DNA of 64,000 nucleotides from Escherichia phage UB. The notes beneath the pieces are model-generated. The model did not search any database and was not told the origin of the DNA. It was given only the letters and a program-made list of their open reading frames with translations. The position numbers were made by a program, and so were the translations under genes. This document shows positions 30,884 through 31,621 of the stretch, piece after piece. How positions within the stretch are numbered: position 1 is the first letter of the stretch; each line of letters opens with the position of its first letter. The stretch is from the sequence record MH383160. One strand, given 5' to 3'.

Positions 30884-31621
30884 ATGTTACCTTTTGGAAG
30901 AATGGTAAAGTACGGGAATAAAATTGAATATAAGCCAGATGGTGAACAATTAATCACGACAATAGGAACAACACAATTTACAGTTCCTGCTGGCGTTACC
31001 GAAATATCAGTATGTGTTATTTCGCCGGGTGGTCAACGTGGTGCTGGTGGCGGCTTATCGTGGCGTAATAATATTCCGGTTACTAGTGGTGAGTACTTAA
31101 GTGTTTCTCTTACACATCCCAACACTACTACACCAGTTGAAAACGGTTTATATCGTGGAACTGAAAAACTATGTGTTAGCTTCACTGGTGAATATAGGGT
31201 TGGTGGACTAGGTGGGAAAGCTGCTAACGCTATTAATGATGGTGGTGGTAATGGGGGCAACGCTGGTGTAAGTGGTGGTGCAGTCATTGGTGGTGGTGCT
31301 GGTGGCTACACTGGTAAAGGTGGTAACGGAGATGCAATCACTGGTGAAAATGGTGCTGGCGGCGGCGGTGGTGGTGGTGCATTCTATAATACCTCGTTCA
31401 TTGGTACGGGTGGTGGTACTGGTATCATTGTTCAAGGTGCTAATGGTATTGGCGGTAGATACGATGGTTCATATAATGGTGGTGCTGGTAGTGGTGGTGC
31501 TGGTAAGATGTATGGTGGTGGTGGTAGTATATGGGATAATTTTTCTTATACGGCTGCTGGTGGTGGTGCTGTGCGAATAATATGGGGACGTGGGAGATAT
31601 TATCCTAACAATTCAGTCTAA
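30884..31621 (+). CDS. Leader-tagged glycine-rich protein (245 aa)
   Basis: MLPFGRMVKYGN leader followed by VCVISPGGQRGAGGG and long GGxG-rich tracts; unlike the RCC1-like paralogs. Confidence 0.8.
   Translation: MLPFGRMVKYGNKIEYKPDGEQLITTIGTTQFTVPAGVTEISVCVISPGGQRGAGGGLSWRNNIPVTSGEYLSVSLTHPNTTTPVENGLYRGTEKLCVSFTGEYRVGGLGGKAANAINDGGGNGGNAGVSGGAVIGGGAGGYTGKGGNGDAITGENGAGGGGGGGAFYNTSFIGTGGGTGIIVQGANGIGGRYDGSYNGGAGSGGAGKMYGGGGSIWDNFSYTAAGGGAVRIIWGRGRYYPNNSV

What the first reader, a model, noticed from the sequence alone, without database searches (positions are those of the whole stretch)
30884..31621. One array member swaps the propeller for a glycine-rich domain
This gene has the same cassette and leader but encodes VCVISPGG..GAGGG and long GGxGG tracts, reminiscent of glycine-rich domains in some phage fibre proteins. 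The leader therefore behaves as a portable module fused to unrelated cargo, which favours a targeting or assembly role over a structural propeller strand.
Basis: partly seen in the sequence, partly recalled or inferred. Interest (0 to 1): 0.6.

Follow-up and report, generated by a model that had tools for sequence, protein, structure and literature searches.

The report
Shared docking leader, glycine-rich fibre-tip head
In a giant E. coli phage, one gene in a row of twelve that all begin with the same 12-residue tag encodes a glycine-rich domain like the receptor-binding tip of phage tail fibres instead of a propeller. This points to the tag being a portable handle that mounts interchangeable binding heads on the virus particle.

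Summary
The window is an Asteriusvirus, a 121Q/PBECO4-like jumbo coliphage. Twelve tandem + strand genes (25996-40222) start with the leader MLPF[AG]RM[VM][KN]YGN. Eleven encode RCC1-like propellers, one of them frameshifted. Gene 30884-31621 encodes a 245-aa protein that is 28.6% glycine.

The leader has low confidence (pLDDT below 50) in both cargo models. It is far better conserved than the protein bodies. Across genera it is conserved at the protein level, with synonymous codon changes. In relatives (Serratia BF, Erwinia pEa_47, Pectobacterium CBB, GAP32) it heads at least four folds: RCC1, Kelch, ConA-like and glycine-rich.

Published virion mass spectrometry detected many leader proteins, including the glycine-rich CBB_144 and the Eneladusvirus 'PE-PGRS' protein.

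Best reading (about 0.55): the leader is a portable virion-docking peptide that plugs lectin-like heads into a common acceptor. This resembles the 'conserved peptide' of secondary receptor-binding proteins in Klebsiella phages. The acceptor, the location on the virion and the ligand are all inferred, not shown.

The parts
25996..40222 (+). Array of 12 genes that share the MLPF leader. Ten are RCC1-like propellers (m9, 35362-36171, is truncated to 269 aa). One is glycine-rich (m5). One is a frameshifted RCC1 (39070-39294 plus 39326-40222).
30819..30839 (+). Upstream cassette hairpin AGCCAGTACTCAGTACTGGCT followed by a T-rich tail. It is terminator-like and closes the preceding RCC1 gene.
   Evidence: 22 terminator-like sites in the array against 5.0 expected
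30850..30873 (+). Conserved AT-rich box TATTAAATATAGTATAATGAATAA, promoter-like and containing TATAAT. There are eight copies, all within the array.
   Evidence: Promoter function is inferred; the sigma-70 scan did not single it out.
30872..30879 (+). Ribosome-binding site AAAGGAGG, 4 nt upstream of the ATG.
30884..30919 (+). Leader, residues 1-12, MLPFGRMVKYGN. It is shared by all array members and has low confidence in the AF2 monomer model.
30920..30937 (+). Linker, residues 13-18, KIEYKP. It lies between the leader and the first strand of the domain. The RCC1 members have a Pro-rich linker at this position.
30938..31213 (+). Beta-strand-rich half of the domain, residues 19-110, 17% Gly. 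It is read as the TNF-like beta-sandwich part.
31214..31618 (+). Glycine-rich part, residues 111-245, 38.5% Gly. It carries the family-conserved motifs DGGGNGG, GGGAGGY.G.GG and (A)VRIIWG..R..P.
31619..31621 (+). Stop codon TAA.
31627..31649 (+). Downstream cassette hairpin, terminator-like. It starts the next cassette copy, upstream of the RCC1 gene at 31694.

Best explanation
Gene 30884-31621 encodes a virion accessory protein made of two modules.

The first module is a 12-residue N-terminal peptide, MLPF-x-R-h-x-x-Y-G-N, followed by a 6-residue linker. It is unstructured on its own. I propose that it docks, probably by folding onto a partner, into a common acceptor site on the particle.

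The second module is a TNF-like sandwich carrying a glycine-rich lattice. This is the same fold as the receptor-binding tip of Pam3 fibre gp24 and as Bxb1 gp33. I propose that it is displayed outward as a binding head.

The other array genes use the same docking peptide to mount RCC1-like propellers. Related phages use it to mount Kelch propellers and ConA-like lectin domains. The particle would therefore carry a mixed set of lectin-like heads, possibly on the hair-like fibres seen on these phages.

Each gene is its own expression unit: hairpin, AT-rich box, strong ribosome-binding site. Within this genus the roughly 100-nt repeat, which includes the first 36 coding bases, also provides homology for cassette gain and loss.

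Shown: the gene, the leader sharing, the diversity of cargo folds, the predicted fold, and virion association of homologues. Inferred: the docking function, the acceptor, the external location and the ligand binding.
For: Leader conservation against bodies. The leader is 66-100% identical among the 11 intact members. The RCC1 bodies are 21-37% identical.

Independence from the DNA cassette. Members m8 (34093) and m10 (36552) lack the hairpin and box but keep the leader.

Protein-level selection. In Serratia phage BF, phage CBB and pEa_47, the MLPF codons vary synonymously (CCT/CCA/CCC/CCG, TTT/TTC, TTA/CTA/CTT) and the upstream DNA is unrelated. In an alignment of 20 RCC1 homologues, M1, P3, F4, R6, Y10 and N12 are among only 14 invariant columns.

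Cargo diversity. RCC1, Kelch, Laminin_G_3/ConA-like and glycine-rich proteins (BF_0541, BF_0543, CBB_144, pEa47_00566 and pEa47_00569) all carry the leader.

Leader lies outside the fold. AF2 of m5 gives pLDDT 93.8 and pTM 0.89, with residues 1-10 averaging pLDDT 49 and the first strand at residue 20. AF2 of RCC1 member m6 gives pLDDT 90.3, with residues 1-13 below 50 and the first strand at residue 22.

Virion association from published mass spectrometry.
- phAPEC6: RCC1 proteins gp003, 005, 006, 007, 009 and 010.
- CBB: CBB_144 (glycine-rich, 5 peptides, 34% coverage), 536, 537, 548, 549, 551, 552 and 553. Their leaders were verified.
- Eneladusvirus: the 'PE-PGRS family protein'. Its leader was verified.
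- JP4: three MLPF proteins.

Precedent. A 29-aa N-terminal 'conserved peptide' is necessary for virion incorporation of the secondary receptor-binding protein in Klebsiella phage KP32, and mediated virion incorporation of a foreign (K1F) enzymatic domain fused to it (PMC13352976).

The family generally has a short lineage-specific N-terminal peptide before the domain. A profile search matches from about profile position 10-20 onward, so the domain proper excludes the leader.
Against: No acceptor protein was identified, and no complex could be modelled.

Mass spectrometry shows presence in virion preparations. It does not show location or dependence on the leader.

The glycine-rich protein of this genus has not itself been detected. 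It is absent from the 49-protein JP4 list. It could not have been found in phAPEC6, because that record annotates a wrong-frame ORF in its place. Only 102 of its 245 residues fall in tryptic peptides of 7-30 aa, so non-detection is weak evidence.

Within this window the leader codons are nearly identical even at synonymous sites. Recent gene conversion through the DNA cassette therefore contributes to the identity seen here.

GAP32, which is not reported to be hairy, also has leader genes. The link to the hairs is therefore speculative.

The seven other full-length Asteriusvirus orthologues aligned with the window protein (at least 93% identical) show no hypervariable tip. Variable sites are 8.7% in the TNF-like part and 8.1% in the glycine-rich part. 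This differs from classical strain-specific receptor-binding tips.

Low pLDDT is not proof of disorder.
Confidence: 0.55

Rival explanations
1. The leader is a packaging signal, analogous to the T4 capsid-targeting sequence or to cargo signals of contractile injection systems. It would load these proteins inside the head or tail for ejection into the host. The RCC1 and glycine-rich proteins would then be internal or injected proteins. The phAPEC6 authors suggested a DNA-condensation or inner-body role for the RCC1 proteins.
For: Virion mass spectrometry cannot separate internal from external proteins. phAPEC6 has an unassigned inner body, and its authors proposed the RCC1 proteins for it. Short N-terminal targeting leaders exist in T4 (my own knowledge, not tested here). 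Five of the ten CBB leaders checked read h-x-E-Y, which resembles the T4 prohead-protease site L/I-x-E (my own knowledge).
Against: The Glu is absent from all 12 leaders in this window (K, N or T at position 9) and from most BF leaders, so a conserved cleavage site is lacking. All four cargo folds are typical extracellular binding modules. The closest solved relatives of the glycine-rich fold are distal tail-fibre or tail-tip parts and a receptor ectodomain. None of the cargo proteins gave a DNA-binding family hit in the Pfam scans I ran; the eukaryotic RCC1 analogy is by name only.
Confidence: 0.12
2. The leaders bind each other rather than a separate acceptor. The N-terminal peptides of several array proteins would co-assemble, for example as an inter-subunit beta-sheet or bundle, into hetero-oligomeric bouquets. 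Alternatively they could bind a shared chaperone or assembly factor that is not in the particle.
For: Many paralogues share an identical short peptide that is unstructured alone. Pam3 gp24 trimerises through its N-terminal module, and TNF-like domains often trimerise. Capsid fibres of phAPEC6 look trimeric. Two leader subtypes (MLPFxRhxxYGN and MLPFPIISNT) coexist in single genomes, which could define two assembly groups.
Against: Twelve residues are short for a stable self-assembling bundle. No coiled-coil or helix is predicted. Some attachment to the particle would still be needed to explain the mass spectrometry detections.
Confidence: 0.15
3. The shared 5' end is only a by-product of how the array grows and is expressed. 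Tandem duplication and homologous recombination through the roughly 100-nt cassette, and/or a translation-initiation element, would keep the first 36 nt alike. The peptide itself would have no role.
For: Within the window the leader codons are almost identical at synonymous sites, and the repeat runs from the hairpin through codon 12. Array content differs between Asteriusviruses, and between BF and pEa_47, by whole-gene gain and loss. This is consistent with cassette recombination, comparable to the PeSL elements of T4-type phages (my own knowledge).
Against: m8 and m10 keep the leader without the cassette. BF, CBB, pEa_47 and GAP32 keep MLPF plus the Y-G-N or IISNT pattern with different codons and unrelated upstream DNA. 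CBB_144 carries the leader as a lone gene between nrdD and nrdG. Leader residues are among the few invariant columns in RCC1 homologues that are 21-95% identical.
Confidence: 0.08
4. The glycine-rich protein is not a particle component in this phage. It would act in the infected cell, for example in lysis or on the cell envelope.
For: In two unrelated phage contigs, glycine-rich homologues lie next to lysis genes: spanin-like genes in L003 and a PG_binding_1/muramidase gene in L005. The protein was not detected in JP4 virions.
Against: The homologues CBB_144 and the Eneladusvirus 'PE-PGRS' protein are detected in virions. The gene sits in an array whose other members are virion proteins. L003 also places it directly upstream of terminase, portal and capsid genes.
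Confidence: 0.06

Closest known systems
Cyanophage Pam3 tail fibre gp24 (PDB 7YPX): TNF-like plus glycine-rich receptor-binding tip
   Different: Sequence identity is only 17%. gp24 has an N-terminal alpha-helical domain that trimerises and docks on the baseplate, and it needs the chaperone gp25. The window protein has a 12-residue leader plus 6-residue linker with no predicted structure, no predicted helix, and no adjacent chaperone-like gene, since its neighbours are RCC1 genes.
Mycobacteriophage Bxb1 gp33 'tail wing brush' and gp29 tail spike subdomain (PDB 9D93)
   Different: The phage type is different (a siphovirus of Actinobacteria). How gp33 attaches could not be read, because the Cell 2025 paper is not held. 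No shared leader or gene array is known there.
Pfam PF21722 Gly_rich_2 ('glycine-rich domain-containing protein')
   Same: There is a chain of sequence homology: P0037 and P0038 carry PF21722 and match at E 8e-17 and 1.5e-16. Of 93 aligned homologues, 30 hit the model, and it is the only Pfam family hit. The BF array members hit it along its full length at sub-threshold scores. The wider family is very large: 6787 cluster representatives at E up to 0.001.
   Different: The window protein itself gives no Pfam hit at E up to 0.1, so it belongs to a divergent branch. In many family members the domain sits at the C-terminus of giant multidomain proteins, sometimes in several copies. Here it stands alone behind a leader.
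N-terminal 'conserved peptide' of secondary receptor-binding proteins in Klebsiella podophages (KP32gp38, K11, KP34), which docks on the T4gp10-like branching domain of the primary receptor-binding protein
   Same: Both are short N-terminal peptides that are separable from the folded cargo. The KP32 peptide was shown to be required for virion incorporation, and it mediated incorporation of a foreign (K1F) enzymatic domain fused to it. This is the mechanism proposed here.
   Different: The KP32 peptide is 29 aa, and its sequence relationship to MLPF was not tested. It serves one trimeric tailspike per phage. Here 10-12 different small single-domain proteins share the tag. No branching-domain partner was identified here.
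ALK/LTK receptor glycine-rich domain (PDB 7LIR, 7LRZ, 7NX3, 7LS0)
   Different: It is part of a metazoan receptor tyrosine kinase, with 16-18% identity. The resemblance is in fold only.
T4 capsid-targeting sequence of internal proteins, and T4-type PeSL cassettes (my own knowledge, not tested)
   Same: The capsid-targeting sequence is a roughly 10-residue portable N-terminal leader that directs unrelated cargo into the particle. PeSL elements are repeated stem-loop plus promoter units that flank shuffled genes.
   Different: The capsid-targeting sequence ends in a protease site (L/I-x-E) that the window leaders lack. PeSL elements do not extend into a conserved coding leader.

Membership tests
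PF21722 Gly_rich_2 / TNF-like plus glycine-rich lattice domain family | Match to the Pfam HMM at or above the gathering score (24.3 bits) | tested here: not met
   There is no hit at E up to 0.1 for the window protein. The BF homologues score 17.9 and 20.2 bits.
PF21722 Gly_rich_2 / TNF-like plus glycine-rich lattice domain family | Significant sequence homology to bona fide members | tested here: met
   phmmer E 8e-17 and 1.5e-16 to the PF21722-carrying proteins P0037 and P0038. Of 93 aligned homologues, 30 hit PF21722 and no other family.
PF21722 Gly_rich_2 / TNF-like plus glycine-rich lattice domain family | Beta-sandwich whose loops form a stacked glycine-rich lattice | tested here: met
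PF21722 Gly_rich_2 / TNF-like plus glycine-rich lattice domain family | Conserved glycine-rich motifs across the family | tested here: met
   G121, G137, G138, A139, G141, Y142, G146, G211, W234 and P241 are invariant in 93 sequences.
Pam3 gp24-type trimeric tail fibre | N-terminal alpha-helical shaft that trimerises and docks on the baseplate | tested here: not met
   No helix is predicted before the domain. Residues 1-18 form a leader and linker with pLDDT 49-77.
Pam3 gp24-type trimeric tail fibre | Dedicated Tfa-like chaperone gene next to the fibre gene | tested here: not met
   Both neighbours are RCC1-like genes.
Docking 'conserved peptide' system of branched receptor-binding proteins (KP32gp38 type) | Short N-terminal peptide conserved among otherwise unrelated virion proteins and lying outside the folded domain | tested here: met
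Docking 'conserved peptide' system of branched receptor-binding proteins (KP32gp38 type) | The peptide is necessary and sufficient for virion incorporation | not testable with these tools
   There is only a correlation: leader proteins are repeatedly found in virion mass spectrometry.
Docking 'conserved peptide' system of branched receptor-binding proteins (KP32gp38 type) | Partner protein with a T4gp10-like branching domain | not tested
   No partner search was done.
T4-type capsid-targeting sequence | Leader ends in a prohead-protease site (L/I-x-E) and is removed | tested here: not met
   Position 9 is K, N or T in all 12 window leaders. It is E in only 5 of the 10 CBB leaders checked. Actual cleavage is not testable here.
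RCC1-like propeller paralogues of the array | RCC1 repeats / seven-bladed propeller | tested here: not met
   The window protein gives no hit to PF00415, PF13540 or PF25390, whereas its neighbours do. It falls in a different PHROG, 4474 against 4219, and has a different predicted fold.
PE-PGRS proteins (the label given to BF_0541 and pEa47_00566) | N-terminal PE domain followed by PGRS repeats, from mycobacteria | tested here: not met
   The N-terminus is the 12-residue MLPF leader. The only Pfam relation is PF21722. The label reflects a compositional match.

The most novel reading that the evidence does not exclude
MLPF-x-R-h-x-x-Y-G-N would be a natural 12-residue 'plug-and-display' tag of RaK2-like jumbo phages. 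Any protein carrying it would be loaded onto one common acceptor, for example on the so far unassigned hair-like fibres on tail and capsid. Each particle would then carry a mixed coat drawn from a dozen lectin-like heads of four unrelated folds. The coat could be re-tooled by cassette exchange, and the tag could be used to display foreign proteins.
Probability: 0.3. Interest if true: 0.75.

Novelty: new variant of a known kind. Interest (0 to 1): 0.55.

Why it matters
Two published proteome and cryo-EM studies of these phages, phAPEC6 and CBB, left the 'hairy' appendages unassigned. They read the RCC1 array as DNA-condensation proteins.

A shared leader on at least four binding-type folds was not mentioned in the papers I could search. 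Most of its carriers are detected in virions. This reframes the arrays as a modular set of surface heads and gives a directly testable handle: delete, mutate or transplant 12 residues.

If the leader is a docking tag, it would explain how jumbo phages can carry many different adhesin-like proteins without a fibre shaft for each. It would also offer a very small tag for displaying proteins on large phage particles.

The work also corrects annotations. The 'DNA condensation', 'PE-PGRS' and 'S-layer' labels are uninformative, and phAPEC6 gp004 is a wrong-frame ORF.

Tried and rejected
- A sequence search of the PDB with the family profile found nothing at E up to 1. Only fold comparison linked the protein to solved structures.
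- BF_0548 and the L003 221-aa protein are both 221 aa with ConA-like hints, but they show no detectable sequence similarity. I did not claim orthology.
- I read the phiTE cryo-EM paper in case a phiTE-like phage (L003) had placed a glycine-rich protein in the virion. It contains nothing relevant.
- The Bxb1 structure paper, which would give the attachment mode of gp33, is not held. Only secondary descriptions were available.
- The CBB supplements hold no peptide-level data, so retention of the leader in mature protein could not be checked.
- The JP4 virion proteome lists three MLPF proteins but not the glycine-rich one. I treat this as weak negative evidence because of the protein's poor tryptic coverage.
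- I looked for hypervariable tips among the window protein and seven Asteriusvirus orthologues. There are none; variation is low and even.
- An NJ tree of the glycine-rich domains places MLPF-bearing proteins in at least four separate positions among proteins with other leaders. It has no bootstrap support and rests on low-complexity alignment, so I use it only as a hint of repeated leader exchange.
- RiPP-like leader and Sec or lipoprotein signal readings were considered and dropped. The cargos are 215-400-aa folded domains, and the leader has no hydrophobic core or Cys (direct reading of the sequence).
- The comparative jumbo-phage review (PMC7824862) does not mention RCC1, Kelch or propeller proteins.
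Full report
**What the window is.** Megablast of 28000-34000 hits 36 jumbo coliphage and Salmonella phage records at 84-94% identity, including 121Q, PBECO4, phAPEC6, SP27, UE-S1 and JP4 of the genus Asteriusvirus. These belong to the 'RaK2-like' group of roughly 350-kb myoviruses.

**Checking the observation.**
- ORF listing and a DNA pattern search show 11 + strand genes between 25996 and 38998 that begin ATGTTACCTTTT.. and encode MLPF[AGP]R[ML][VMLI][KN]Y[GA]N. Chance expectation is 0.00.
- A twelfth copy at 39070 (MLPFGRIITSSKKN) is frameshifted. Its RCC1 body continues as ORF 39326-40222.
- Ten intact members are RCC1-like propellers (PF25390, PF00415, PF13540, phrog_4219).
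- The fifth member, 30884-31621, is as described: 245 aa, MLPFGRMVKYGN..SVCVISPGGQRGAGGG.., 28.6% Gly overall and 38.5% in residues 111-245, with 17 Gly runs. Its neighbours have 7-14% Gly.
- ATG 30884 is the start. AAAGGAGG lies at 30872-30879. The longer ORF from 30866, like those from 28223 and 29559, is in-frame read-through of the cassette.
- The overlapping V-, P- and T-rich ORFs in other frames are artefacts of the GGT-rich sequence. One of them is what GenBank annotates as phAPEC6 gp004.

**The cassette.** An alignment of the 11 upstreams shows four elements in order: a hairpin GCCAGTACTnnnTACTGGC with a T-run, the box TATTAAATATAGTATAATGAATAA, a strong ribosome-binding site, and then the leader.
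- The box occurs 8 times and the hairpin 9 times in the 64-kb window, only in the array.
- Terminator-like sites are enriched in the array: 22 against 5.0 expected.
- The glycine-rich gene has a full cassette on each side.
- m8 (34093) and m10 (36552) lack the hairpin and box yet keep the leader. The leader is therefore not just the tail of a DNA repeat.

**Leader against body.** Leaders are 66-100% identical, whereas RCC1 bodies are 21-37% identical. With metagenomic homologues added (20 sequences, 21-95% identical to m6), M1, P3, F4, R6, Y10 and N12 are among only 14 invariant columns.

**The leader beyond this genus.**
- Serratia phage BF (Eneladusvirus) has a 10-gene array. RCC1 genes carry MLPFPIISNT. 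Two glycine-rich genes, BF_0543 and BF_0541 (the latter labelled 'PE-PGRS'), carry the same local leader. A 221-aa non-RCC1 gene starts MLPFARIVEYGN.
- Erwinia phage pEa_47 has the same array plus one extra ConA-like member.
- Pectobacterium phage CBB (Mimasvirus) has CBB_548-554, CBB_536, CBB_537 and a further gene, all starting MLPF.[RI]...Y[GA]N. Their cargos are Kelch propellers and Laminin_G_3/ConA-like domains.
- CBB_144 is a glycine-rich family member with the leader MLPFSPLIVYGNK. It sits alone between nrdD and nrdG.
- GAP32 and a 371-kb uncultivated relative also carry leader genes. Two leader subtypes coexist in some genomes.
- Between genera the MLPF codons differ synonymously and the upstream DNA is unrelated. 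Selection is therefore on the peptide.
- Within this window the codons are nearly identical, so local gene conversion through the cassette also operates.

**What the glycine-rich body is.**
- It has no Pfam hit itself, but matches phrog_4474 at E 9e-69.
- The word-indexed homologue search gave 199 hits, many carrying PF21722. Of 93 aligned homologues, 30 hit PF21722 and nothing else.
- The profile finds 6787 cluster representatives at E up to 0.001 in 1.84 billion proteins. The domain is often C-terminal or multi-copy in giant proteins, and the matches start at about profile position 10-20, so they exclude the leader.
- AF2 with this alignment gives pLDDT 93.8 and pTM 0.89.
- The Pam3 paper describes this fold as a TNF-like sandwich plus a four-layer glycine-rich lattice that recognises the host, while a separate N-terminal helical domain docks the fibre on the baseplate. 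It relates the fold to the S16 gp38 adhesin and to ALK. A later paper notes the same kind of glycine-rich bundle in Bxb1 gp33 and gp29.
- Bxb1 gp33 is a peripheral, non-essential accessory attached through gp30 and gp31.
- BFVD hits are 'glycine-rich domain-containing proteins' and the Eneladusvirus 'PE-PGRS' protein.

**The leader is outside both folds.** In the glycine-rich model, residues 1-10 average pLDDT 49 and residues 11-20 average 77, with the first strand at residue 20. In the RCC1 model (m6; pLDDT 90.3), residues 1-13 are below 50 and the first blade strand starts at residue 22. The leader is therefore not predicted to be a propeller strand.

**Other leaders on the same domain.** Most stand-alone family members have a 15-20-residue N-terminal peptide before the domain, and it is lineage-specific. 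Examples are M-[LI]-E-[LMT]-[LM].. in 26 of 93, MSFG.PVRNGIGIGL.. and MKRFPGNII... One phage contig (L003) has three adjacent genes with the M-x-E-[LM]-[LM] type: one ConA-like and two glycine-rich, one of them uncalled. This is a small parallel to the MLPF arrays. A rough NJ tree scatters MLPF-bearing domains among the others.

**Location.** Published virion mass spectrometry provides the following.
- phAPEC6: RCC1-like gp003, 005, 006, 007, 009 and 010.
- CBB: CBB_144 (5 unique peptides, 34% coverage), 536, 537, 548, 549, 551, 552 and 553. Of the six CBB virion proteins absent from GAP32, which the authors considered candidates for the whiskers, five carry the leader.
- Eneladusvirus: the 'PE-PGRS family protein', a leader-bearing glycine-rich protein.
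- JP4: three MLPF proteins, but not the glycine-rich one. That protein has few suitable tryptic peptides.
- phAPEC6 could not have detected it, because its record lacks the ORF.

The phAPEC6 and CBB papers report unassigned hair-like fibres on tail and capsid. The phAPEC6 authors guessed that the RCC1 proteins condense DNA.

**Mechanism proposed.** A portable docking peptide mounts interchangeable binding heads on a common virion acceptor.
- The experimentally established analogue is the 29-aa N-terminal 'conserved peptide' of secondary receptor-binding proteins of Klebsiella podophages. It is required for virion incorporation, does not affect folding, and carried a foreign (K1F) enzymatic domain into the KP32 virion.
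- The differences here are these. The tag is 12 residues. It serves a dozen small single-domain proteins of four folds. No partner is known.
- The glycine-rich gene is present in 17 Asteriusvirus records at 84-99.6% identity. Among eight full-length sequences (the window protein and seven orthologues) variation is low and even, at 8-9% of sites, with conservative changes in the leader (G5A, V8I, Y10F). Its ligand, if any, is probably conserved rather than strain-specific.

**Rivals.** The alternatives are an internal packaging signal, leader self-assembly or chaperone binding, a purely DNA- or expression-level explanation, and a non-virion role. They are weighed in the rival list. None is excluded outright. 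The DNA-level one is the weakest, given the cross-genus codon evidence.

**Novelty and score.** The protein is 100% identical to deposited Asteriusvirus hypothetical proteins, and its domain family and fold are known. The new element is the shared leader across unrelated cargos and its correlation with virion incorporation. I did not find this in the relevant papers, although my literature access is partial. I rate it a new variant of a known kind (the docking-peptide and modular receptor-binding-protein logic), with interest 0.55.

Noticed in passing
window 24284-25893 (- strand): Eight tandem small ORFs of 59-75 aa lie directly upstream of the leader array on the opposite strand. They look like paralogues of one another, with similar starts and similar ..L[IL]xx ends. 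They appear to be a second, unrelated tandem family.
   Followed up: no
window 39070-40222: The twelfth array member starts MLPFGRIITSSKKN and stops after 74 codons. The RCC1 body continues in another frame as ORF 39326-40222. This is either a frameshifted pseudogene or a sequencing error.
   Followed up: partly
window 35362-36171: Array member m9 is a truncated RCC1 of 269 aa. The same truncation is present in 121Q and in phAPEC6 gp007, which was detected in virions. The short form therefore seems to be functional.
   Followed up: partly
L002 (phAPEC6, MK817115.1) 5997-8059: There are two annotation errors. gp004 (7716-8018) is a wrong-frame V-rich ORF inside the glycine-rich gene (7325-8059). 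The RCC1 gene at 6063-7253 is not annotated. Neither true protein was in the record used for the published proteome.
   Followed up: yes
window 28223, 29559, 30866; JP4 proteome entry JP4_581: The cassette reads through in frame, giving spurious N-terminal extensions such as ..ICIKYSIMNKGG.-MLPF. Some annotations and the JP4 mass spectrometry database use the long forms.
   Followed up: partly
L003 8134-10744 (Plesiomonas MAG phage contig JBOFWI010000265.1): Three adjacent genes share a different short leader, M-x-E-[LM]-[LM]. They are a ConA-like gene (8134), an uncalled glycine-rich gene (9176-10000) and a glycine-rich gene (10001). They lie next to spanin-like genes and the terminase, portal and capsid module. 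This is a parallel to the MLPF arrays in an unrelated roughly 150-kb phage.
   Followed up: partly
L012 5001-5765 (phage CBB, CBB_144): A leader-bearing glycine-rich virion protein gene sits alone between the anaerobic ribonucleotide reductase genes nrdD and nrdG, far from the leader arrays.
   Followed up: partly
L006, L021, L014, L017: Two leader subtypes, MLPFxRhxxY[GA]N and MLPFPIISNT, coexist in single genomes and on adjacent genes. Subtype is not tied to cargo fold across genera. This could mean there are two acceptor sites.
   Followed up: partly
L008 versus window; L021 versus L006: Array content differs by whole genes between close relatives. 121Q has an extra RCC1 gene between the glycine-rich gene and the m6 orthologue. 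pEa_47 has an extra ConA-like member relative to BF. This is consistent with cassette gain and loss.
   Followed up: partly
window 20000-42000: GC skew switches sign at about 22 kb and about 40 kb, bracketing the + strand block that holds the array. The flanks are transcribed on the - strand.
   Followed up: no
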